A stretch of DNA of 64,000 nucleotides from an uncultured Pseudomonadales bacterium (lineage in GTDB: Bacteria > Patescibacteriota > Microgenomatia > UBA1400 > Chazhemtobacteraceae). Position 1 is the first letter of the stretch. Each line of letters opens with the position of its first letter. The translations under genes were made by a program, and so were the position numbers. This document shows positions 25,263 to 63,015 of the stretch, one piece after another. The stretch lies in contig CAYQZQ010000002.1 of NCBI GenBank assembly GCA_964422035.1, positions 1,612 through 65,611 on the forward strand, read 5' to 3'. The notes under the pieces were generated by a model that saw only the letters and a program-made list of their open reading frames with translations, was not told where the DNA came from and did no database searches.

Positions 25263-25335
25263 GGGCGGCTAGCTCAATGGTAGAGCGGTTGTCTTATATG
25301 CAACTGGTTCCAGGTTCGAATCCTGGGTCGCCCAC
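25263..25335 (+). tRNA. tRNA-Ile with anticodon UAU (reads AUA); CCA not encoded
   Basis: Manual cloverleaf: acceptor GGGCGGC/GUCGCCC, D arm GCUC-AAUGGUA-GAGC, anticodon stem GUUGU/GCAAC, loop C-U-UAU-A-U, T arm CCAGG-UUCGAAU-CCUGG, discriminator A. Confidence 0.8.
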
Positions 25336-27096: not shown

Positions 27097-27125
27097 AAAA
27101 CCACTCCTTTGTGGAATGGTTTAGT

Positions 27126-27200
27126 GGTTGCGGGCCCAGGGAATTGAACCCTGGTTAAGTGAGATTATGAGCCTCACGAGATACCTACCTCCCGCCCGCA
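27126..27200 (-). tRNA. tRNA with anticodon CAU (Met, fMet or Ile2-lysidine type); CCA encoded
   Basis: Minus-strand fold: acceptor UGCGGGC/GCCCGCA, D stem GAGG/UCUC with a short loop, anticodon stem UGAGG/UCUCA, loop C-U-CAU-A-A, T arm CCAGGG-UUCAAUU-CCCUGG, then A + CCA. Neither a 6-bp T stem nor a 5-bp T stem with one extra nucleotide gives a standard cloverleaf. Confidence 0.7.
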
Positions 27201-27292
27201 TGTTAATGTCTTGCAACAAGTATAATCTTACCACGAGGCTGGATTGAGCTCAAGTTATTAGATAGATGGTAAAATAGTAGTGTGATTTTCTG

Positions 27293-27366
27293 GCAGGGTA
27301 GCTCAGTTGGTTAGAGCGAAGGAATCATAAACCTTAGGTCGGGAGTTCGAATCTCCCCCCTGCCAC
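27293..27366 (+). tRNA. tRNA with anticodon CAU (Met, fMet or Ile2-lysidine type)
   Basis: Acceptor GGCAGGG/CCCUGCC, D arm GCUC-AGUUGGUUA-GAGC, anticodon stem AAGGA/ACCUU (A31-A39 mismatch), loop A-U-CAU-A-A, T arm GGGAG-UUCGAAU-CUCCC, discriminator A. Confidence 0.85.
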
Positions 27367-52033: not shown

Positions 52034-52042
52034 TGGTATAAT
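52034..52042 (+). promoter_or_regulatory. Extended -10 promoter element (TGGTATAAT) upstream of the 7TM / ATP-grasp operon
   Basis: TGG at 52034-52036 plus TATAAT at 52037-52042, with a weak TTGTTT about 15 nt upstream. The ATG of the 7TM gene is at 52095. Confidence 0.4.
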
Positions 52043-52094
52043 TAAGAAAAGGTCCGCCTGATGATTGTGTTATCAATTTAATAAGAATTTGCCT

Positions 52095-52982
52095 ATGAGA
52101 AAGTCCTTTTTCATATTTTTATTGGTTATTTTACCTTTTTTTAGTTTAGGCACGATTTGGGCTCAAGAGCCGGATGATGCTAATTTATCTACTGAAGTAG
52201 CAACTGAGGCAGGATCTGCAAGCTCTTCAGCGGTGGTAATTATAGAGGAAAAAGAGAACTTAACTGAGCCTAAGCAGTCAAAAAGCAGGCTGGAAAGAGT
52301 GTTGGAGTCAAAGGATGTGGGAGAGTTGAGTGTAACTAATTTTTTACAGGTTGCGATAAGAAGAGCTGTTAGCCAGGGTGTGCCTGCAAATACGATTGTT
52401 TTGATGCTTTTGTTTCCTTTGGTGGCTGCGATTATTGCTGCGGCCAGGCATATTGTGGGGTTGAAAGGTTTTGGTATTTTTACTCCGGCTGTTATCTCGG
52501 TAGCGTTTCTGTCTACTGGTGTGGGTGTGGGTGTGTTGTTGTTTTTGGGGATTATTGTGGTAGCTACTTTAGGGCGAATGATTATTCGTAAGATGAGGCT
52601 GCCTTCTTTGCCCAGGCTGGCTTTGCTTTTGTGGTTTGTGTCATTGGGAGTGTTGGGGTTGATACTGGCTTCGCCCTGGTTGAATTTGAATAGCTTGATA
52701 ACCATCAGCATTTTCCCTATTTTGCTTTTGGTGCTGTTGGCTGAGACGTTTATCAGAGTTCAGATCACTAGAAGTTTCAGAGAAGCAATGAGGCAGACAT
52801 TCCAGACGTTTGTGTTGGCCTTGTTATCGTTTTTGGTGATGAGTACGCAAGCTTTGCAGGAATGGGTGCTTTTAAACCCGGAAATTTCGGTAATTATGAT
52901 TGCGGTGTTAAATATCATGATTGCCAAGTACGGTGGGCTAAGACTTTTGGAGATGTGGCGTTTTAGAAAGATAATTAAGTAA
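52095..52982 (+). CDS. Secreted N-domain + 7TM membrane protein, candidate 7TM module of an ATP-grasp amidoligase system (7TM_transglut-like)
   Basis: Signal peptide MRKSFFIFLLVILPFFSLGTIWAQE, an extracytoplasmic region of about 80 aa, then seven hydrophobic helices. Its stop is 4 nt before the ATP-grasp gene start. Start was placed at the signal-peptide Met inside ORF 52065..52982. Confidence 0.55.
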   Translation: MRKSFFIFLLVILPFFSLGTIWAQEPDDANLSTEVATEAGSASSSAVVIIEEKENLTEPKQSKSRLERVLESKDVGELSVTNFLQVAIRRAVSQGVPANTIVLMLLFPLVAAIIAAARHIVGLKGFGIFTPAVISVAFLSTGVGVGVLLFLGIIVVATLGRMIIRKMRLPSLPRLALLLWFVSLGVLGLILASPWLNLNSLITISIFPILLLVLLAETFIRVQITRSFREAMRQTFQTFVLALLSFLVMSTQALQEWVLLNPEISVIMIAVLNIMIAKYGGLRLLEMWRFRKIIK

Positions 52983-52986
52983 GGCA

Positions 52987-54321
52987 ATGGCCAAGTTAAG
53001 TGATATTCTAGGAATCAATGCGAGAAGTAAACATTATCTGAGACTGAATTACAAGCAGTCTCGGAGAATGGCGGATAGTAAGTTAAAATCCAAACTGTTT
53101 TTGGAAAAACATGACATTCCAGTTCCTGAGACGTATGCTTTGTTTGAGGATAGGGAAGAGGTTGATGAGTTTGACTGGTTAAGTCTAAATGGCGCTTTTG
53201 TAATAAAGCCGGTAAATGGACTAGGTGGTGAAGGAATTTTAGTGGTTAAGAAAAAAGCTAAATATGCAGGTGAGTGGTATTTGATGGATGGGAATAAGAT
53301 TAATTTTGAAGATTTGAAGTTGCACGCCAATGATGTTTTACAGGGAAGGTATAGTAAGAACAATTTACCTGATAAGGCTCTGGTTGAGAGAAGAATTAAG
53401 ATTCACCCAAAGTTTGGGAAAATTGCTAAAGGGGGTACTCCTGATATTAGGACGATTGTCTATAACAAAGTGCCTGTTATGGCAATGTTGAGGATACCAA
53501 CGGAGGAGAGTAAGGGAAAAAGTAACTTGCATCAGGGGGCTATTGGTTTAGGGGTGGATATGGCAACTGGAATTACTACCTATGGAGTGTGGCATGATAA
53601 TTTAATTAAGTATTTTCCGGGTACAAAAAAGAAGGTGAATGGTATTGTGGTTCCGCACTGGACGAAGATATTGGAGATAAGTAGTAAGATTCAACACGAA
53701 AGGCCTTGCCTGGGATATTTTGGAGCAGATATCTTGATTGATAAAGATGAGGGACCTCAGGTGATTGAGTTGAATGACCAACCAGGCTTGTCTATTCAGA
53801 TTTGTAATAAGGCAGGACTAAGAAGAAGGTTGGAGAGAGTAGAAGGATTGTATGTCGAGACGGTTGAGAAAGGAGTTAAAGTTACTAAAACTTTGTTTGC
53901 TAGTGGATTTGCCAGGAAAGTTAAGAGTGTGGGTGAAAGACCTACTATTGGAATTTTTGAGACGGCTAGAATTAAGCCAGGAGGGAAAAGAAAGAAGCGA
54001 GTGGATGTGTCGGTTAAAATTGATACCGGTGCGTATAGCAGTAGTATTGATAGGGAGTTGGCTAAGAGATTTAAGTTACTGAAGGATGAAAATGTATTAT
54101 ATGAGAAAACTTTTAAATCTTCGTTGGGCAGGGAGGAGAGAAAAGTAATAATGGTGGATTTGAAATTACGAGGGAAAAGAGTGAGAGCTAGAGCAAGTGT
54201 TACAGATCGATCTGGTTTGAGAAGGAAGATGATTTTAGGCAGAAGAGATTTAAGAGATTTTCTTGTTGATCCAGCACAGTTTAAGCCTCGAGATAGGTAT
54301 GGGGAGAAGATTGAAAAATAA
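52987..54321 (+). CDS. Fusion of an alpha-L-glutamate-ligase-related (RimK-like, 'sugar-transfer-associated') ATP-grasp domain and a C-terminal retropepsin-like DTGA aspartic-protease-like domain
   Basis: 444 aa. N-terminal ILGINARSKHYLRLNYKQSRRMADSKLKSKLFLEKHDIPVPETY, FVIKPVNGLGGEGILVV, DIRTIVYNKVPVMAMLRIPTEESKGKSNLHQGAIGLGVDMATGIT and ELNDQPGLSIQ are ATP-grasp blocks of the RimK-related family. The C-terminal 140 aa carry KIDTGAYSSSID (D-T-G-A), as in the RimK-associated putative-protease family. Confidence 0.7.
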   Translation: MAKLSDILGINARSKHYLRLNYKQSRRMADSKLKSKLFLEKHDIPVPETYALFEDREEVDEFDWLSLNGAFVIKPVNGLGGEGILVVKKKAKYAGEWYLMDGNKINFEDLKLHANDVLQGRYSKNNLPDKALVERRIKIHPKFGKIAKGGTPDIRTIVYNKVPVMAMLRIPTEESKGKSNLHQGAIGLGVDMATGITTYGVWHDNLIKYFPGTKKKVNGIVVPHWTKILEISSKIQHERPCLGYFGADILIDKDEGPQVIELNDQPGLSIQICNKAGLRRRLERVEGLYVETVEKGVKVTKTLFASGFARKVKSVGERPTIGIFETARIKPGGKRKKRVDVSVKIDTGAYSSSIDRELAKRFKLLKDENVLYEKTFKSSLGREERKVIMVDLKLRGKRVRARASVTDRSGLRRKMILGRRDLRDFLVDPAQFKPRDRYGEKIEK

Positions 54322-54328
54322 GATGTAG

Positions 54329-55213
54329 TTACTGGTTGTGTCTTTTTTCAAAGTGTTTGATGATGCTTAGAGCAATGTTGTGTTGGGTGTATTTTTCTAA
54401 GCCAGTGAACTGGGGACCTCTGTTTACTTCTAATACGTAAGGCTTGTTTGTTTGCTGGTGAAGCATAATGTCTATGCCGGCTATTTCGGTGTGAAGAAGT
54501 CGAGAGGTTTTTTCAGCGAGTTGCTTTATTTTGGGGTTGTCCTGTAGGGGGAAAGGTTTGGCGGTGCCTCCTTGGGAGATATTGGATTTAAAACTGTCAT
54601 TGGGTGGGATACGGTGCATGACACCTATGGCTTGATAGCCGACGGTGAAGACTCTAATGTCTCCGTTGTTGGGAATAAACTCTCTGAACATAAATGATTT
54701 TGATTTTTTGTTTTGGTTTATGATGTTGATTGCCTGCTCTTTGCTTTCTACTTTATATACTCCCTGCCCTCTTTGGCCGCCGGTTTTGATAATTAGAGGA
54801 AATCTGTGGTTTTTTAGAGCAGCATCTGCTTGATCTGGTGAAAGAATGGTTGTGGTATAGGGAAAGTTAATATCGTTTTGTTTTTGTTTTAAGAGTTCGT
54901 GGATAGGGGTAAAAAATAGGTTGTAGCTGGGGTCAATATATTTTTGTTCTATGATGGTTGTGTGGTGTGTTTGGTGAAGGTAATGGCAGGTAAGATACCA
55001 AGGCCATTTTCTTTTTCCTACAGCGAGCAGGTAGATAAGATCAAAGTTTTTTAGAGATTTATTGCTAATGGTGGGGTGAAATTTTTTATTGGATGAGTGA
55101 ATGATTAGATCTTTTGAGCTACAGTTTATAAGTTGATGATTGCGTTTTTCCCCTTCTTGTTTGAGGCGATTGAAGTTGCTACTAGTTGTTTTGCCGACAA
55201 CTAAAATTTTCAT
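54329..55213 (-). CDS. RimK/LysX-like ATP-grasp ligase, second ATP-grasp enzyme of the locus, convergent
   Basis: 295 aa from MKILVVGK. FPLIIKTGGQRGQGVYKV (ATP-binding loop), FMFREFIPNNGDIRVFTVGYQAIGVMHRIPPNDSFKSNISQGGT and GIDIMLHQQTNKPYVLEVNRGPQF (Mg/ATP-grasp C-terminal motif). The upstream in-frame extension to 55369 was rejected because it overlaps mnmA. Confidence 0.7.
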   Translation of the reverse strand: MKILVVGKTTSSNFNRLKQEGEKRNHQLINCSSKDLIIHSSNKKFHPTISNKSLKNFDLIYLLAVGKRKWPWYLTCHYLHQTHHTTIIEQKYIDPSYNLFFTPIHELLKQKQNDINFPYTTTILSPDQADAALKNHRFPLIIKTGGQRGQGVYKVESKEQAINIINQNKKSKSFMFREFIPNNGDIRVFTVGYQAIGVMHRIPPNDSFKSNISQGGTAKPFPLQDNPKIKQLAEKTSRLLHTEIAGIDIMLHQQTNKPYVLEVNRGPQFTGLEKYTQHNIALSIIKHFEKRHNQ

Positions 55214-55293: not shown

Positions 55294-56376
55294 GTGAATC
55301 AGACAAAAGATAAACGACTAGAAGTTGCAGTAGGCCTGTCTGGAGGTGTTGATAGTGCTGTGAGTGCATATCTTTTAAAGCAACAAGGATATGAAGTGGT
55401 TGGTGTGTATTTGAAGTGTTGGGATGAGGGTCCTGAGTGTCAAGCGAGGCAGGACAGGAAAGATGCTCTCAGGGTGGCTATGAAGCTTGAGATTCCAGTT
55501 AAGGTGTTGGATTTTGAGAAGGAATATAGAGAAAGAGTAATTGATAGGTTTTATGAGGCTTACAAGAAAGGTTTTACTCCAAATCCTGATGTGTGGTGCA
55601 ACAGTGAGATAAAGTTTGGTTTGTTTTTAGATTGGGCAAAAAGTGAGGGTTTTGACAAGATTGGAACAGGCCATTATGCAAAAAAGGGAGAGACAGATGG
55701 GGGTTATAAATTGTTAAGACCAAAAGACAAAAGTAAAGATCAAACGTATTTTTTATATCAACTTAATCAAGAACAATTGAAGAGTGCGTTGTTTCCTTTG
55801 GGAGAGAAAGAGAAAAGTTGGGTAAGAGAAAAGGCTGGAGAAATTGATTTGCCGGTAGCTGACAAAAAAGACAGTCAGGGAATTTGTTTTGTGGGAGATG
55901 TGGATGTGCAAGAGTTTTTAAGAAGAAGATTAGAAGAAGAGAAGGGTGAGGTGGTTAATAGTAAAGGAGAAAGGATTGGTGTTCATCAAGGAGTCTGGTT
56001 TTATACTATCGGGCAGAGAGGTGGTTGGCAGATAGATAGGGAGTTTCAGCAAAATTATCAAGGAGAGATGCCAGTGTTTTATGTTGTAGACAAAGATATT
56101 GAGAGTAATAAGTTAATAGTGGGGGAGAGAGAAGAGTTGGGTACAACAAACTTTAAGGTAAGTGATTTGAGTTGGATAAGAGAGTTGAATGATGAGTTGT
56201 CTGATGACGATTTAAAGGTAAGAATACGTAATTTAGGAGAGTTGGTGGATTGTAGTGTGAGTGTGGCAGATGAATTGGCTGTTGAGGTTGAAGATGAACT
56301 AGAGGGAGTTGCGTGTGGGCAAGCGGCAGTCTTTTATTTGAACGATGAGTGCTTGGGTGGAGGGGTGATTAAATAA
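55294..56376 (+). CDS. mnmA: tRNA-specific 2-thiouridylase MnmA
   Basis: PP-loop VAVGLSGGVDSAVSAYLL, catalytic Cys in NPDVWCNSEIKF and SQGICFVGD. Start was assigned to the in-frame GTG at 55294; ORF 55186 has no in-frame ATG near the conserved N-terminus. Confidence 0.8.
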   Translation: MNQTKDKRLEVAVGLSGGVDSAVSAYLLKQQGYEVVGVYLKCWDEGPECQARQDRKDALRVAMKLEIPVKVLDFEKEYRERVIDRFYEAYKKGFTPNPDVWCNSEIKFGLFLDWAKSEGFDKIGTGHYAKKGETDGGYKLLRPKDKSKDQTYFLYQLNQEQLKSALFPLGEKEKSWVREKAGEIDLPVADKKDSQGICFVGDVDVQEFLRRRLEEEKGEVVNSKGERIGVHQGVWFYTIGQRGGWQIDREFQQNYQGEMPVFYVVDKDIESNKLIVGEREELGTTNFKVSDLSWIRELNDELSDDDLKVRIRNLGELVDCSVSVADELAVEVEDELEGVACGQAAVFYLNDECLGGGVIK

Positions 56377-59399: not shown

Positions 59400-62123
59400 C
59401 TACTTTTTTTGTTTGGGTTGATGAAAAATGAGAAGGATAGGAAGTATAATGAGGGCAGCGAAACCAAGATATTGGATTAATTGGGGTTGATAGATGATAA
59501 GTAGATTTGATTGACCGGAGGGAAGTAGCCAGCTATTGGCCCAGTTGTTTGCTTGTTGGTGAGTAGGAAGAGGTTGGAGCATGGTTGATAGAGCGTATTG
59601 TTTCCAGACAGGAAGTAAAGTGGTTTTTGAGGGAATTAGATAGGCTTTCCAGCCCTTATCAAAGCTTTGATTTAGGGTGATTAGAGAACGGGGGTGAGGT
59701 GAGTTTGCAGAGATAGTGTAGAGGGTTGGAGAGTGTTTCTTAACGGAGGTGATGTCTGTGTATGGATAAGAAGATGGTTGAGTAGCGATGTCAAATTGAG
59801 AGGCGGGAAGAGGAGTGATCTGGATTTTTTTCCAGGAGTTTTTAGTTTCTGTTTGGCCTATGGAGTAGTTGTAGAGATGGAGGGTGTAGCCGTATTTTTC
59901 AGGTTGCATTGGGGGAAGAGTTATGGTGTCTTTGTGCCAGTCGGCTGATTTGTCCAGATATTGATATATAAGGCAGTTTTTTGATGTGTATGACTCAAGA
60001 CAGAGCGAGAAGGGAAAGCCGGAGTGATTGCGATGCTCAATATTGATTTGATAGCCGTATGAATGAGGTAGTGAGGAGAAGTTGAAGTGGTCGCAGGTGT
60101 TAGCATCGGTGGCGGTGTAAGTAACTTGATCTGAAAGGATTTGTTTATCAAAATATTGAGAGTTGAACTGATCGCAGTTTTTAGATTGGTCTTCTATGGC
60201 GGAGTTGTTGTCTTGAGGGGTTTGAGTGATGATTTGTGGAGCCGGTTGGGGTGAATCAGGTAGAAGGTTGTTGGTTGAAGACAGTTTTTGGGTGTTGATG
60301 AAGCTTTTGGGCTGGGTGGGAAGAGAAAGTGAGTAGAGGGTAAGATGATCAAAGGTTTTTTGATTGGTTACAAGTGAGCTTTGAGAAAGCAGGGACTTTA
60401 GTTGGTCAGTATAGAGGGCAGTTTGATCTTGGGAGGCGGGGATAGTAACTGAGTGATCGATTAGAAGCCAGTTAATTTGGTATTTTTCAAGTAGATGTTC
60501 TAGATAGGGGAGGTTTTGTGAATAAAGAGCAGTTCTGATTTCTTGGTAGTAGTCTTGATTGTAGGGAGACCAGACATCAAAAGCTCTGTCTAGGGTAGCT
60601 TGGGGTATGCCGTACCAGATAAAACCTGATCCTCTATACCCCCACTGGTAGAAGTGCCACCCCCAGAGGGTATGTTGAGGAAAGTTGGCTAGTCTGGTGT
60701 TGTGATCTTGATTGTCTAGGTATTCAAATAACTGAAAGTAGCTTTGGGGTATGGAGGTCTTTAAAGGAGAGTAGATTAGGTGGCCCTGAAAGGCGGGAGA
60801 AGAGAGTAATATTAAGGCTAAAGCTAGTGTGAATGAGGTAAGTAGGGGGGTTAGTTTGAAGTGAAGCATGGAGAAGAGGTCAAGTAGAAAGACGGTGGCA
60901 ACAGAGAAGAAAAGAGAGAAGCTTAGGGCAGCAGGTGTACCCCATTTGGTAAAAGGTGAGCGAAAGGCTTGATTAAGTAAGGGTAGGTGTTGTTGGAAAG
61001 ACTGATAAAGCGAGAGGAAGGGTGGGTTTAGATTGATAAGGAAAAATATGGATATAAGGGATAAAATTACAAGTGGTATAGCGGTGTAGAGTTTTTTTAT
61101 CAGAGAGTAAATTAAGCCAATAAGAGTGAGGGCAAAGATGGTGTAGCCGATGAAGTCGATAACAGGGTGGGACAGGTGTTCTATCCAAGGTTGCATAATG
61201 AGTTGAAACTTATTTTCTGAGAGATTAAGGTCGGTGTATTGAAAGTTGAAGCTTTTGAGTAGGGCCAGGTTTGAGATTTGACCAAACTCTTGATTTCGGG
61301 CAGTTATCTCTGGTGTTGAGATTTGATTTTGTAAGGCTGTGGGAAGTTGGTTGGCTGAAGAGAGAGTAAAGTGTGAGTTAGGGAGGAGCCAGTAAGCTTG
61401 AGTGATAATTATGGTTAAGGTGAGTATGAAGAGTTGTTTTAGAGTGGAAAAAGAAAGGTTGGTGACAAGATGATGGATGAGAAAAGGAATAAGAGAGATG
61501 ATAAAGACTATGAATAATGTTTGAACATAGAAAGTGGGGGTGGAGGCTATAAGTATAAGAGTTAAAAAGATAAAGGTTTTTTTAGAAGGCTGGTTAAGAT
61601 ATTTGATTGAGGAGTAAAGAAGCCAAGGAAGAAAGGCATAGAAATAGGTAAAGGTCTCAAAAGGAAGATAGAAAACTTGAACAGTGTTTAGGTTAAGCAG
61701 ATAGGCAAGGGCAGCAAAGAAAGCAGCAATTTTTTTGGCTTGAGGGTCGAGTTTGTCTAGAATGGTTTTTGAGGCAAGAAAATAAACACCTAAGGGGCCT
61801 AGGGTTAGAGTAATAAAGGTAAGTAGGTAGCGGATGAAATTAAGAGGGAAAATTAAAGATAATAGGTATGCAGTGAGGGTTCTTGTTAAATCTGCAGAGT
61901 GAGCCATGCCGGCTAGTAAGCCAAGACCTCGATATTGCTGCCAGATGGATAAGTATCGCTTGAAGTGAAGGGGGAAGTTAAATTCTGAGTGAATGTTGTC
62001 CCAGCCGGTTAGCCAAGTATTTGGTTGGTAGTTGAGAAAAGAAAGGGAAGAGGTGATGAAGATAATAGCAATTATCGGCCAGTAAGGTAAAGCTTTACTG
62101 AAGATCGATTTTAGTTGTTTCAT
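59400..62123 (-). CDS. Large polytopic membrane protein with a C-terminal extracytoplasmic domain, GT-C-fold-like (YfhO/ArnT-like) candidate glycosyltransferase
   Basis: 907 aa. About 13 TM helices in the first 450 aa, then a soluble Cys-containing domain of about 450 aa. It lies immediately downstream of a GT2 gene, as in csbB-yfhO-type pairs. Confidence 0.4.
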   Translation of the reverse strand: MKQLKSIFSKALPYWPIIAIIFITSSLSFLNYQPNTWLTGWDNIHSEFNFPLHFKRYLSIWQQYRGLGLLAGMAHSADLTRTLTAYLLSLIFPLNFIRYLLTFITLTLGPLGVYFLASKTILDKLDPQAKKIAAFFAALAYLLNLNTVQVFYLPFETFTYFYAFLPWLLYSSIKYLNQPSKKTFIFLTLILIASTPTFYVQTLFIVFIISLIPFLIHHLVTNLSFSTLKQLFILTLTIIITQAYWLLPNSHFTLSSANQLPTALQNQISTPEITARNQEFGQISNLALLKSFNFQYTDLNLSENKFQLIMQPWIEHLSHPVIDFIGYTIFALTLIGLIYSLIKKLYTAIPLVILSLISIFFLINLNPPFLSLYQSFQQHLPLLNQAFRSPFTKWGTPAALSFSLFFSVATVFLLDLFSMLHFKLTPLLTSFTLALALILLSSPAFQGHLIYSPLKTSIPQSYFQLFEYLDNQDHNTRLANFPQHTLWGWHFYQWGYRGSGFIWYGIPQATLDRAFDVWSPYNQDYYQEIRTALYSQNLPYLEHLLEKYQINWLLIDHSVTIPASQDQTALYTDQLKSLLSQSSLVTNQKTFDHLTLYSLSLPTQPKSFINTQKLSSTNNLLPDSPQPAPQIITQTPQDNNSAIEDQSKNCDQFNSQYFDKQILSDQVTYTATDANTCDHFNFSSLPHSYGYQINIEHRNHSGFPFSLCLESYTSKNCLIYQYLDKSADWHKDTITLPPMQPEKYGYTLHLYNYSIGQTETKNSWKKIQITPLPASQFDIATQPSSYPYTDITSVKKHSPTLYTISANSPHPRSLITLNQSFDKGWKAYLIPSKTTLLPVWKQYALSTMLQPLPTHQQANNWANSWLLPSGQSNLLIIYQPQLIQYLGFAALIILPILLIFHQPKQKK

Positions 62124-62133
62124 GGGGTAATCT

Positions 62134-63015
62134 TTAACTTTGTTTGGCTAGTTGAAGATTAGCTTTAAGATTGTGCAGTTTGATTTGAGGGAAGGTGAAG
62201 CCGAAGATAATAGAGTAGAGAGGATAGATTAATTTTTTAGGGAAGATCAAAATAACTATTAATATTAATTTGTTTTGTATTTTGGTTAAAAAAGTTGGCT
62301 GGTAGTTATAGTTTTTTCTAGCGTTTTGTCTGATTTTATAGGCATCGAGGTAGGTATGGAGAGGATCTTTTAAGGAAAGGCCTTGTGGATTCTGTCGGTA
62401 TTTGATTATGGTGTCTGAAAGATTGGCAGCTTTTCCGTATTGAAAAAGCTTGAAGTATAGATCCAGATCTTCGGAGGATACTTGATCGGAGTGGTACCAA
62501 GAAAATTTTTTAGGAAGTAGACTGGTATTGATCATTACAGCTGGGTGTTGAAGAGGAGAGCGAATAAAGGCTAGTTGGTAGATTTGTTGGTGGTCTGTGG
62601 GGAAGGTTTTTTTACCGATTATTTTGTCTTGGGTGTCTATGAGTTGGCACTGGCCACCCACAATGATGGTTTTGGGGTGTTTTAGAAGGTATTTAAGCTG
62701 TTTTTGGAGCCTGTCTGGGAGCATGATGTCATCTGCATCCATGCGAGCTACGTACTGGCCTTGGACGTGCTTTAAAGCTTTGTTTAAAGTGTGGGCAATA
62801 CCCTGGTTGGGAGTGTGGGAGAAGACTTTAATTTTGGAGCTTTTTTTGGCGTATGAATTGAGGATGTTTAAAGAGTGATCGGTTGAAGCATCATCGATGG
62901 CGATTAACTCCCAGTTTGAATAAGTTTGGGTTAAGACACTATCTAGAGCTTGCTTTAAATACGCAGAGGAGTTGTAGACGGGAAGGATGATGGATATTAA
63001 AGGTTGTTTGTTCAT
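62134..63015 (-). CDS. Glycosyltransferase family 2 (polyprenyl-phosphate sugar transferase-like, with a C-terminal TM segment)
   Basis: 293 aa. ISIILPVYNSSAYLKQALDSVLTQTYSNWELIAIDDASTDHS and the DxD-type YVARMDADDIMLPDRL. C-terminal hydrophobic helix LILIVILIFPKKLIYPLYSIIFGF. Confidence 0.75.
   Translation of the reverse strand: MNKQPLISIILPVYNSSAYLKQALDSVLTQTYSNWELIAIDDASTDHSLNILNSYAKKSSKIKVFSHTPNQGIAHTLNKALKHVQGQYVARMDADDIMLPDRLQKQLKYLLKHPKTIIVGGQCQLIDTQDKIIGKKTFPTDHQQIYQLAFIRSPLQHPAVMINTSLLPKKFSWYHSDQVSSEDLDLYFKLFQYGKAANLSDTIIKYRQNPQGLSLKDPLHTYLDAYKIRQNARKNYNYQPTFLTKIQNKLILIVILIFPKKLIYPLYSIIFGFTFPQIKLHNLKANLQLAKQS

What the first reader, a model, noticed from the sequence alone, without database searches (positions are those of the whole stretch)
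52034..55213. Compact 7TM + RimK-like ATP-grasp/DTGA-protease fusion + second ATP-grasp locus: a predicted peptide amidoligase system
Three adjacent genes form a coherent module that is not housekeeping:
- A secreted-domain 7TM membrane protein (52095-52982).
- Four nt downstream, a protein fusing an alpha-L-glutamate-ligase-related ATP-grasp domain to a C-terminal retropepsin-like domain with a D-T-G-A motif (52987-54321).
- A second, convergent RimK-like ATP-grasp ligase (54329-55213).

RimK-type ATP-grasp enzymes add amino acids (poly-Glu in RimK) to protein or peptide C-termini. Comparative-genomics work has predicted, but not biochemically resolved, systems in which such ligases pair with retropepsin-like peptidases and 7TM modules to build or trim peptide tags or small peptide metabolites at the membrane. 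Here the ligase and the peptidase-like domain are fused in one polypeptide, and a second ligase is present. The locus sits in what looks like a reduced, possibly host-associated genome. Its substrate and function are unknown.
Basis: partly seen in the sequence, partly recalled or inferred. Interest (0 to 1): 0.8.

Follow-up and report, generated by a model that had tools for sequence, protein, structure and literature searches.

The report
Rlo-like ligase–peptidase membrane module
This is a real, strongly conserved two-gene membrane module, plus an accessory ligase, from a tiny candidate-phyla-radiation bacterium; it is a rewired version of the little-understood Rlo envelope-stress system of Pseudomonas, with the peptide-making enzyme and its trimming protease fused into one cytoplasmic protein.

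Summary
Window 52095-52982 encodes a PF14402 7TM protein. Window 52987-54321 encodes an RloC-type ATP-grasp ligase (PF14397/TIGR02291-like) fused to a compact retropepsin-like peptidase with an invariant DTGA. Window 54329-55213 (minus strand) encodes a RimK-family ligase.

The system is not unique to this genome. The fused ligase-peptidase is a large family in Patescibacteria (CPR). The 7TM gene lies directly upstream in 78 of 80 related loci, and one to three accessory RimK-like ligases occur in about 60-75% of loci.

The closest characterised relative is the Pseudomonas rloABC operon (2025): secreted retropepsin RloA, which cleaves poly-Glu; inactive-transglutaminase-7TM RloB; and ATP-grasp RloC.

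The CPR version differs in three ways:
- the peptidase is fused to the cytoplasmic ligase and has no signal peptide or cysteines;
- the 7TM protein lacks the transglutaminase ectodomain;
- extra ligases are attached.

Chloroflexota show a third wiring (signal peptide-peptidase-7TM, then the ligase), and other fusions link all the components.

The best model is membrane-coupled synthesis of an acidic, poly-Glu-like peptide, with built-in trimming and export or anchoring by the 7TM protein. The chemistry is inferred, not shown. Verdict: a new variant of a known kind, of moderate interest.

The parts
52095..52982 (+). RloB-like 7TM membrane protein (PF14402) without the inactive-transglutaminase domain. 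Signal or anchor helix at residues 1-23; acidic, Ser/Glu-rich exposed segment at residues 24-96; seven TM helices at about residues 97-280; conserved basic cytoplasmic tail Y-x-G-L-R-L-L-E-x-W-R-F-R at residues 279-291.
   Evidence: Pfam and NCBIfam; topology; 120 homologues of about 300 aa with PF14402 only; G281, L282, R283 and E286 invariant; AF2 model, pLDDT 83; no solved structural relative.
52987..53886 (+). RloC-type ATP-grasp ligase domain (residues 1-300) of the fusion protein. The predicted ATP and Mg residues K74, D248, E261 and N263 are invariant. The N-terminus is a short helical segment in place of the RimK pre-ATP-grasp domain.
   Evidence: PF14397 1e-65; TIGR02291 6e-80; RimK-family profile position 76 aligns to residue 20; invariant columns; AF2, pLDDT 85.5; Foldseek top hits are RimK 5zct at 1.7e-9, then ArgX/LysX and CphA.
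53887..53943 (+). Inter-domain linker (about residues 301-319). It includes conserved L303, F304, A305 and F308, and a disordered stretch at residues 311-315.
53944..54321 (+). Compact retropepsin-like aspartic peptidase domain (residues 320-444, including the stop codon). It has no cysteines and a net charge of +19.
   Evidence: PF05618, RloA3; only 9g58, 9g59 and 2pma are hit, E about 1e-4 with the profile; 9g58 RloA, E=8.9e-7, prob 1.0; charge; the same domain subtype in other architectures.
54022..54033 (+). Catalytic motif D346-T-G-A349. D, G and A are invariant and T is at least 90% conserved in 50 family members. K344, two residues upstream, is also invariant.
54238..54249 (+). G418-R-R-D421 motif, the retropepsin 'G-R-D/N' signature. 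G418, R419 and D421 are invariant.
54329..55213 (-). Accessory RimK-family ATP-grasp ligase (294 aa), convergent with the fusion gene. It is not a RimK (S6-Glu ligase) orthologue. It belongs to a paralogue group that is linked to the module in other CPR genomes.
   Evidence: family scores; co-occurrence; 51% identity to the ligase in the same position in L003; 40-45% to module-linked ligases in Woesebacteria; P0376 has ligase, peptidase and a second ATP-grasp in one chain.

Best explanation
The locus is the Patescibacteria (CPR) form of the Rlo-type 'ATP-grasp ligase / retropepsin-like peptidase / 7TM' system.

Shown here:
- The three components are homologous to RloC, RloA and the 7TM half of RloB.
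- Both catalytic centres are intact and invariant across the family.
- The 7TM gene and the ligase-peptidase gene form an almost obligatory, tightly spaced pair.
- RimK-like accessory ligases are frequently attached.
- In other lineages the same peptidase subtype is fused to the 7TM protein, and a second ligase is fused to the ligase-peptidase.

Inferred mechanism:
1. The very basic cytoplasmic ligase docks on the basic, conserved cytoplasmic face and tail of the 7TM protein.
2. Using ATP, the ligase polymerises an acidic alpha-linked peptide, most likely Glu-rich, as RimK does.
3. Two fusion chains pair so that their retropepsin domains form the usual two-aspartate active site. This site cuts the acidic chain, which releases it or limits its length, as RimB does for RimK and RloA does for the RloB/C product.
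4. The 7TM protein exports the product or presents it at the cell surface.
5. The accessory RimK-like ligase adds or primes further residues.

Moving the peptidase to the cytoplasm and losing the periplasmic transglutaminase-like domain would fit a cell without a periplasm.
For: Homology:
- PF14402, PF14397/TIGR02291 and PF05618/RloA3 hits.
- A profile of the C-terminal domain hits only RloA-type structures.
- The AF2 model (pLDDT 85.5) matches RimK and RloA 9g58.

Intact catalysis:
- D346, G348, A349, G418, R419, D421, K74, D248, E261 and N263 are invariant in 50 sequences of 54-95% identity.

Acidic-substrate signature:
- K344, R385 and R408 are invariant. They align with the 9g58 positions that correspond to RloA K46, R114 and R137, whose mutation abolishes poly-Glu cleavage.
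- Net charge is about +16 on the peptidase domain and +18 on the ligase, across the whole family.

Cytoplasmic location:
- The peptidase is fused behind an ATP-dependent enzyme.
- It has no signal peptide and no cysteines, whereas periplasmic RloA proteins have a conserved disulfide that cytosolic RimB lacks.

Functional linkage:
- The 7TM gene is adjacent in 78 of 80 loci, with a median gap of 9.5 nt.
- An unbiased census finds only the 7TM and ATP-grasp families to be ubiquitous neighbours.
- Rosetta-stone fusions occur: signal peptide-peptidase-7TM with an adjacent unfused ligase in Chloroflexota, and ligase-peptidase-second ligase in P0376.

Precedent:
- Deleting rloB or rloC suppresses the defects of the rloA triple mutant, and RloA cleaves runs of at least 8 Glu (PMC12239564).
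- RimB stimulates poly-alpha-Glu synthesis by RimK, and a natural RimB-RimK hybrid is proteolytically active (PMC11957791).
Against: - No product or substrate has been identified for RloC in any organism, so Glu polymerisation is extrapolated from RimK.
- The ligase is only remotely related to RimK: the best RimK structure match is about 22% identical, and BLASTP against the window's own RimK-like protein gives E=0.016.
- The peptidase lies outside the membrane in Proteobacteria and Chloroflexota but inside in CPR. This could mean different substrates rather than one exported polymer.
- Peptidase dimerisation could not be modelled.
- The mapping of RloA residue numbers rests on an assumed offset of about 20 residues.
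- The Pfam score for PF05618 is only marginally above its cut-off.
Confidence: 0.5

Rival explanations
1. Reversible C-terminal tagging of a protein. Like RimK and RimB on ribosomal protein S6, the ligase or ligases add a short amino-acid tail to a specific protein, and the fused peptidase removes it. The target could be a ribosomal, membrane or surface protein. The 7TM protein would be a regulator, sensor or membrane anchor rather than an exporter.
For: - RimK, ArgX and LysX, which all ligate onto protein C-termini, are the best structural matches.
- The RimB/RimK precedent includes a natural hybrid.
- In Woesebacteria the module lies beside the L10, L7/L12, L1 and L11 genes.
Against: - No conserved small or acidic-tailed partner protein was found in 84 loci.
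- The C-termini of the 7TM and fusion proteins are basic, not acidic.
- The ribosomal-gene adjacency is lineage-specific synteny on the opposite strand.
- rpsF is not linked to the module.
- The third gene scores 66 bits against a cut-off of 331 for the S6-Glu ligase equivalog.
- An obligatory 7TM partner, and peptidase-7TM fusions that display the peptidase outside the cell, are hard to reconcile with a purely cytoplasmic tag.
Confidence: 0.2
2. Amino-acid decoration of an envelope glycopolymer or lipid-linked precursor. The ligase amidates a sugar-acid or a peptidoglycan- or teichoic-like intermediate at the membrane. The 7TM protein would be the flippase or scaffold for that lipid-linked substrate.
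For: - Pfam names PF14397 'sugar-transfer associated'.
- One relative (P0335) carries a C-terminal YdjC-like carbohydrate deacetylase domain.
- The Rlo phenotypes in Pseudomonas concern cell shape and beta-lactam sensitivity.
- L003 has the murein genes alr and a Mur ligase upstream.
Against: - No glycosyltransferase or polysaccharide gene is a conserved neighbour.
- A peptide-cleaving retropepsin with conserved poly-Glu-binding residues has no obvious role in this scheme.
- The flanking genes in the window are tRNA synthetases, mnmA and S1.
Confidence: 0.12
3. The third gene is functionally independent. The convergent RimK-like ligase is a separate housekeeping-type enzyme that merely sits next to the two-gene module in this genome.
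For: - It is on the opposite strand, in a different transcription unit that is divergent with mnmA.
- 18 to 31 of the related loci show no accessory ligase within reach.
- The two ligases are only remotely related.
Against: - Accessory ligases are found in 49 of 80 to 62 of 84 loci, mostly directly downstream and co-directional.
- The window's copy is orthologous (51% identity) to the one in the same position in L003, and 40-45% identical to module-linked copies in Woesebacteria.
- A single-chain ligase-peptidase-second ligase exists, P0376.
Confidence: 0.2
4. A ribosomally made modified peptide (graspetide or RiPP-like) cluster, with an ATP-grasp maturase, a leader peptidase and a membrane exporter.
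For: - The combination of ATP-grasp, protease and membrane protein superficially resembles such clusters.
- One Collierbacteria locus (L001) has radical SAM genes and 62-65 aa ORFs between the fusion and a RimK-like gene.
Against: - No conserved precursor ORF was found.
- The ligase belongs to the RimK/RloC clade, not the graspetide clade. The graspetide maturase model scores 17.8 bits against a cut-off of 350, and only for the third gene.
- The L001 genes are an insertion that is absent elsewhere.
Confidence: 0.04

Closest known systems
Pseudomonas rloABC operon (Lormand et al., mBio 2025, PMC12239564)
   Same: It has the same three protein families: an RloC-type ATP-grasp (PF14397/TIGR02291), a PF14402 7TM protein and a PF05618 retropepsin-like peptidase with DTGA. 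The basic channel residues are conserved, and the 7TM gene is followed by the ligase gene in one operon.
   Different: - The peptidase is fused to the C-terminus of the cytoplasmic ligase. It has no signal peptide or disulfide cysteines and is about 30 residues shorter.
- The 7TM protein lacks the inactive-transglutaminase ectodomain (NF052267 scores 80 bits against a cut-off of 900).
- Accessory RimK-like ligases are attached.
- The host is a monoderm-type CPR bacterium, whereas the paper reports that 96% of RloB hits are in Proteobacteria.
RimK/RimB and the RimBK hybrid (Little et al., JBC 2025, PMC11957791)
   Same: A cytoplasmic ATP-grasp ligase is paired, or fused in RimBK, with a cysteine-free retropepsin-like peptidase. 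RimB cleaves poly-Glu and stimulates poly-alpha-Glu synthesis by RimK.
   Different: - The domain order is reversed: in RimBK the peptidase is N-terminal.
- The ligase belongs to the RloC clade, not to RimK.
- NCBIfam RimB scores 13.9 bits against a cut-off of 200.
- An obligatory 7TM partner is present.
- There is no link to rpsF.
Chloroflexota signal peptide-peptidase-7TM fusion with an adjacent unfused ligase (found here: P0285, P0291, P0312, P0243; loci L087, L089)
   Same: It has the same compact peptidase subtype (39-49% identity), the same 7TM motifs including the YRGLR..E..RFR tail, and the same 7TM-then-ligase gene order with overlapping stop and start.
   Different: The peptidase sits between a Sec-type signal peptide and TM1, so it is displayed outside the cell. 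P0243 carries two tandem peptidase domains. No accessory ligases were seen in the two loci read.
Amidoligase systems predicted by Iyer, Abhiman, Burroughs and Aravind, Mol Biosyst 2009 (recalled from my own knowledge; the paper is not held)
   Same: It gives the general prediction that RimK-like ATP-grasp enzymes work with a 7TM or inactive-transglutaminase protein and an aspartyl peptidase. It is the source of the Pfam families used here.
   Different: I could not check whether the CPR fused architecture is mentioned there. CPR genomes were essentially unavailable in 2009.

Membership tests
Rlo system (RloA/RloB/RloC) | RloC-type ATP-grasp ligase (PF14397; TIGR02291) | tested here: met
   PF14397 scores 222 bits against a cut-off of 31.4 over residues 15-286. 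TIGR02291 scores 268.5 bits (E=6e-80), which is below its trusted cut-off of 314.2. It is therefore a divergent clade member, not an equivalog.
Rlo system (RloA/RloB/RloC) | RloB: an inactive transglutaminase ectodomain fused to seven TM helices | tested here: not met
   Only the 7TM half is present: PF14402 scores 102 bits, and NF052267 aligns at profile positions 311-507 with 79.9 bits against a cut-off of 900. All 120 closest homologues are about 300 aa with PF14402 only.
Rlo system (RloA/RloB/RloC) | RloA: a secreted peptidase with an N-terminal signal peptide and a conserved disulfide | tested here: not met
   The domain is C-terminal to the cytoplasmic ligase, has no signal peptide and contains no Cys (sequence; for the criterion).
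Rlo system (RloA/RloB/RloC) | Retropepsin fold with DTGA and basic poly-Glu-binding residues (K46, R114, R137 in RloA) | tested here: met
   9g58 is hit by Foldseek at E=8.9e-7. DTGA and GRxD are invariant. K344, R385 and R408 are invariant and align to the corresponding 9g58 positions. The residue-number mapping is inferred.
Rlo system (RloA/RloB/RloC) | The genes are co-located in one operon | tested here: met
   78 of 80 loci have the 7TM gene directly upstream on the same strand. The gap in the window is 4 nt.
Rlo system (RloA/RloB/RloC) | Poly-Glu cleavage activity, with osmotic, biofilm or antibiotic phenotypes | not testable with these tools
   This needs biochemistry or genetics.
RimK (ribosomal protein S6 glutamate ligase) | Equivalog-level match to the S6-L-glutamate ligase (third gene) | tested here: not met
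   PRK10446 scores 66.1 bits against a cut-off of 331. TIGR00768 rimK_fam scores 133.9 bits against 143.4. The protein is a RimK-family ATP-grasp but not a RimK orthologue.
RimB / RimBK hybrid | RimB-type peptidase at the N-terminus of a RimK ligase | tested here: not met
   NF052261 RimB scores 13.9 bits against a cut-off of 200. Here the peptidase is C-terminal and the ligase is RloC-type. The domain order in RimBK is taken from PMC11957791.
Retropepsin-like aspartic peptidases (clan AA; PF05618 branch) | An obligate homodimer with one catalytic Asp per chain at the interface | not testable with these tools
   Only monomer prediction was available. Indirect support: natural tandem-duplicated versions exist, P0241 and P0243.
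Graspetide / RiPP clusters | A conserved precursor peptide gene next to the ATP-grasp maturase | tested here: not met
   No conserved small ORF family was found across 84 loci.
Anti-phage defence or phage-borne systems | A match to known defence or phage protein families | tested here: not met
   PADLOC gives no hits. PHROGs gives only a generic S6-ligase-like hit, for the third gene.

The most novel reading that the evidence does not exclude
CPR bacteria use this module as a membrane-coupled, non-ribosomal peptide polymerase and exporter. Two to four different ATP-grasp ligases, docked on a dedicated 7TM conduit of an unsolved fold, would build a defined acidic heteropeptide. A built-in retropepsin would cut it to length before it is displayed on the cell surface. 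That would be a previously unrecognised envelope polymer, important for the osmotic integrity or host attachment of these episymbionts.
Probability: 0.15. Interest if true: 0.75.

Novelty: new variant of a known kind. Interest (0 to 1): 0.45.

Why it matters
The Rlo system affects hypo-osmotic survival, cell shape, biofilm formation and beta-lactam sensitivity in Pseudomonas. Its chemistry is unknown: nobody knows what RloC makes or what RloB does.

The CPR version is a stripped-down, two-protein form, with ligase and peptidase in one soluble chain and a 300-aa 7TM partner that has no ectodomain. It is conserved across many Patescibacteria lineages whose genomes keep very little that is dispensable. 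That makes it a convenient minimal system for working out the product and the role of the 7TM protein.

The three natural wirings (separate, peptidase on the 7TM, peptidase on the ligase) give independent evidence that the three parts act as one machine. The peptidase's substrate may be reachable on both sides of the membrane.

The finding also flags a conserved, uncharacterised envelope-related function in CPR bacteria. It does not overturn anything known.

Tried and rejected
- **Substrate or carrier protein.** I looked for a conserved small protein of the LysW, S6 or precursor type. The 55-65 aa ORFs beside the RimK pair in L003 and L005 are hydrophilic and unrelated to each other. The window has only an 80-bp divergent intergenic region there. 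The unbiased clustering of 1411 ORFs found no such family.
- **rpsF as a linked substrate.** It is absent from the window. It is present in only one related locus (L014), where S6 ends in a single Glu and no accessory ligase is nearby. This is uninformative.
- **Promoter and terminator scan.** Nothing above chance. A TGnTATAAT-like element at 52034-42, seen by eye, is unsupported statistically.
- **PDB sequence search with the ligase domain alone.** No hits at E of 0.01 or better.
- **Defence or phage origin.** Rejected.
- **Mobile island.** Rejected, because the flanking genes are housekeeping: TrxB, LysS, TyrS, MnmA, S1 and RadA.
- **Literature.** The listed hits of the literature searches showed no description of this system in Patescibacteria. 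Iyer et al. 2009 is not held.
- **afdb50 fold search for taxonomic spread.** The library was unavailable.

Full report
**1. What is in the sequence**

The three ORFs are present as described.

- The first gene (52095-52982, + strand, 295 aa) is a PF14402 '7TM_transglut' protein (E=3.8e-29). In NCBIfam it matches only the C-terminal 7TM part of RloB, profile positions 311-507 of 508, at 80 bits against a cut-off of 900.
- Four nucleotides downstream starts a 444-aa protein (52987-54321). Its residues 15-286 match PF14397 (E=1e-65) and TIGR02291 'alpha-L-glutamate ligase-like' (E=6e-80, 268 bits, below the cut-off of 314). Its C-terminal part matches PF05618 (27.9 bits, cut-off 27), Asp_protease_2, and NCBIfam RloA3 (E=1.4e-7).
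- Seven nucleotides beyond its stop codon, a convergent gene ends. This gene (54329-55213, - strand, 294 aa) is a RimK-family ATP-grasp: PF08443 at E=3.7e-28 and TIGR00768 at 133.9 bits against a cut-off of 143.4. It is not the S6-glutamate ligase, which scores 66 bits against 331.
- The long upstream extension of the third ORF (to 55369) is not supported by homologues of about 295 aa. It would also overlap mnmA, whose likely GTG start is at 55294.

**2. The proteins look functional**

An alignment of 50 full-length relatives (54-95% identity) has these invariant columns:
- the ATP-grasp residues K74, D248, E261 and N263;
- the retropepsin signature D346, G348 and A349, with T347 at least 90% conserved;
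- G418, R419 and D421.

Their coordinates were verified.

An AlphaFold2 model is confident (mean pLDDT 85.5) and has a short disordered tether at residues 311-315 between two domains. In Foldseek against the PDB:
- the N-terminal domain is closest to RimK (5zct, E=1.7e-9), then ArgX/LysX and cyanophycin synthetase;
- the C-terminal domain hits the crystal structure of Pseudomonas fluorescens RloA (9g58, E=8.9e-7, probability 1.0).

A sequence profile of the C-terminal domain alone hits only three PDB sequences, all PF05618-type: 9g58, 9g59 and 2pma, at E about 1e-4. The domain is a compact version, about 110 aa against about 140.

The 7TM protein has the following layout:
- a signal or anchor helix;
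- an acidic, Glu-rich exposed segment of about 75 aa that is largely disordered in the model;
- seven TM helices, with every strongly basic loop on the cytoplasmic side;
- a conserved cytoplasmic tail, Y-x-G-L-R-L-L-E-x-W-R-F-R.

**3. It is a family-wide, syntenic module of CPR bacteria**

The fusion has more than 120 full-length cluster representatives at 55-95% identity. The few that carry names are Collierbacteria or 'Patescibacteria group'.

The best 80 loci carry labels such as Collier-, Woese-, Shapiro-, Blackburn-, Moran- and Kaiserbacteria, Parcubacteria and Saccharibacteria. Many MAGs in that list are labelled Gammaproteobacteria, Pseudomonadales, Bdellovibrionales or archaea. They share lineage-specific synteny with the named Woesebacteria or Moranbacteria loci, and one is an 811-kb chromosome, so I regard those labels as unreliable (inference).

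Across the 80 loci:

| Feature | Result |
|---|---|
| 7TM gene directly upstream, same strand | 78 of 80; the other two are cut by the contig end |
| Median 7TM-to-fusion gap | 9.5 nt |
| Peptidase domain contiguous with the ligase | 77 of 80 |
| Additional RimK-like ligases (tblastn) | 49 of 80 |
| Additional RimK-like ligases (ORF clustering) | 62 of 84: one copy in 25 loci, two in 32, three in 5 |

The additional ligases are mostly directly downstream and co-directional.

An unbiased clustering of all 1411 ORFs in these loci found only two ubiquitous families, ATP-grasp and the 7TM protein. The other recurrent neighbours are housekeeping genes that reflect lineage synteny.

The window's third gene is 51% identical to the ligase in the same convergent position in L003, and 40-45% identical to module-linked ligases in Woesebacteria. 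It therefore belongs to the module's accessory set, although this lineage keeps only one copy.

The flanking genes in the window are housekeeping: TrxB, LysS and TyrS on one side, and MnmA, S1 and RadA on the other. There is no defence or phage signature.

**4. The closest known systems**

NCBIfam's names led to Lormand et al. 2025 (PMC12239564). In Pseudomonas aeruginosa, rloA encodes a secreted retropepsin, rloB an inactive-transglutaminase-7TM protein and rloC an ATP-grasp protein, all in one operon.
- Loss of the three RloA paralogues causes hypo-osmotic lethality, and shape, biofilm and antibiotic defects.
- These defects are suppressed by deleting rloB or rloC.
- RloA cleaves runs of at least 8 Glu, and K46, R114 and R137 are needed for this.
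- The product of RloC and the role of RloB are unknown.
- The paper reports that 96% of RloB hits are in Proteobacteria.

Little et al. 2025 (PMC11957791) show that cytoplasmic RimB cleaves poly-Glu tails and stimulates poly-alpha-Glu synthesis by RimK. They also show that a natural RimB-RimK hybrid, with the peptidase at the N-terminus, is proteolytically active.

**5. How the window's system differs**

- The peptidase is fused behind the cytoplasmic ligase. It has no signal peptide and no cysteines. The periplasmic RloA proteins have a conserved disulfide that cytosolic RimB lacks, so a cytoplasmic location is coherent.
- The 7TM protein lacks the transglutaminase-like ectodomain, as do all 120 of its closest homologues.
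- Accessory ligases of the RimK family are attached.
- Compared with RimBK, the domain order is reversed and the ligase belongs to a different clade. The two ligases in the window are barely alignable (E=0.016), and the RloC-type ligase lacks most of the RimK N-terminal domain: RimK-family profile position 76 aligns to residue 20.

**6. Other wirings found here**

An exhaustive search with the peptidase domain alone gave 426 clusters at E of 1e-3 or better. It showed the same compact subtype in several architectures:
- stand-alone proteins of about 105-160 aa, including one in Collierbacteria;
- the ligase-peptidase fusion, as in the window;
- signal peptide-peptidase-7TM proteins of 350-394 aa in Chloroflexota MAGs;
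- a signal peptide-2x peptidase-7TM protein (P0243);
- a tandem two-domain soluble form (P0241);
- ligase-peptidase-YdjC (P0335);
- ligase-peptidase-second ATP-grasp (P0376).

In two loci that carry the peptidase-7TM fusion, an unfused PF14397 ligase follows immediately, overlapping the stop codon.

The three components are therefore fused pairwise in different lineages, which is classical evidence that they act together. The peptidase is extracytoplasmic in Proteobacteria and Chloroflexota, and cytoplasmic in CPR.

**7. The most likely mechanism**

Shown:
- homology of all three parts to the Rlo proteins;
- intact catalytic motifs;
- near-obligatory pairing of the genes;
- Rosetta-stone fusions.

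Inferred:
- The ligase, held at the membrane by the 7TM protein, polymerises an acidic alpha-linked peptide.
- Paired retropepsin domains cut it.
- The 7TM protein exports or presents it.
- The accessory ligase adds or primes residues.

The acidic-substrate inference rests on two observations. First, K344, R385 and R408 are invariant, and they align with the 9g58 residues that correspond to RloA K46, R114 and R137 (the numbering offset is assumed). Second, the positive charge is striking across the whole family: a median of +16 on the 127-aa peptidase part and +18 on the ligase part.

The relocation of the peptidase and the loss of the periplasmic domain would fit a cell without a periplasm. 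That point is my inference.

I put about 0.9 on 'homologous variant of the Rlo system' and about 0.5 on the specific mechanism. The main rivals are:
- reversible tagging of a protein C-terminus (0.2);
- decoration of an envelope glycopolymer (0.12);
- independence of the third gene (0.2, a separate question);
- a RiPP cluster (0.04).

**8. Novelty and verdict**

However, the system belongs to a kind that is already named and partly characterised, and the fusion is the norm for a large CPR family rather than a peculiarity of this locus.

In the listed hits of the literature searches I found no description of the CPR wiring, or of the Chloroflexota one. Iyer et al. 2009 could not be checked.

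I classify it as a new variant of a known kind, with moderate interest (0.45). Its value is as a minimal, widely conserved form that could make the open question of what RloB and RloC do experimentally tractable.

Noticed in passing
window 1-64000: There is an extreme, one-directional G/C strand disparity. GC skew is +0.46 over the whole window and +0.28 to +0.57 in every 2-kb bin, with no sign change. Third-codon-position skew is +0.68 in + strand genes and -0.68 in - strand genes, so the cause is mutational. It gives strand-specific amino-acid usage: + strand proteins are rich in E, K, G and V, and - strand proteins are rich in H, Q, P, S and T. The phenomenon is published for Microgenomates order UBA1400 (Ca. 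Chazhemtobacterium Ch65, Collierbacteria, Beckwithbacteria; PMC7143001), where Ch65 has a skew of about 0.33. The window is stronger, and so is the L003/L004 lineage at 0.44-0.48.
   Followed up: partly
window 25263-25335 (+): A tRNA-Ile with anticodon TAT (UAU) is present. Most bacteria instead decode AUA with a lysidine-modified CAU tRNA. Two tRNA-Met(CAT) genes lie nearby at 27125-27200 (-) and 27292-27366 (+).
   Followed up: no
window 59400-62123 (-): A 907-aa ORF has no Pfam match at E of 1e-5 or better. It lies next to a family-2 glycosyltransferase at 62134-63015 (-).
   Followed up: no
L001 6140-10919 (Collierbacteria contig): An insertion lies between the fusion gene and a RimK-like gene. 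It contains two radical SAM enzymes, each followed by a 62-65 aa ORF, plus a Peptidase_MA-like protein. It looks like a RiPP-type cassette and is absent from the other loci.
   Followed up: no
P0241 (258 aa) and P0243 (487 aa): These carry tandem-duplicated retropepsin-like domains in one chain. In P0241 both copies have DTGA. In P0243 the copies have DTGA and DSGS and are fused to the 7TM protein. They are single-chain pseudo-dimers, an independent route to a pepsin-like two-lobed protease.
   Followed up: partly
L087 5001-7117 and L089 5001-7323: The Chloroflexota-type loci have signal peptide-peptidase-7TM followed by an unfused PF14397 ligase. GenBank annotates the peptidase-7TM fusion as 'RimK/LysX family protein', which is misleading. 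The neighbours include glutamate dehydrogenase (L089 7412-8695) and an AstE/AspA-family protein (L087 8297-9298). These are single-case hints of Glu or Asp chemistry.
   Followed up: partly
L003 8092-8289 (-) and L005 8289-8456 (+): Small hydrophilic ORFs of 65 and 55 aa flank the pair of accessory RimK-like ligases next to mnmA. They are not alike, and the window has no equivalent. It is unclear whether they are real genes.
   Followed up: partly
loci L007-L086 (record titles): About half of the MAG records that carry this CPR-type module are labelled 'uncultured Gammaproteobacteria', 'Pseudomonadales', 'Bdellovibrionales', 'Micavibrio' or archaea. One of them is an 811-kb 'Gammaproteobacteria' chromosome (OZ246419.1). 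They share synteny with named Woesebacteria or Moranbacteria loci, so the taxonomic labels are probably wrong.
   Followed up: partly
It was seen by eye only, and the consensus scan found nothing above chance in this region.
   Followed up: no
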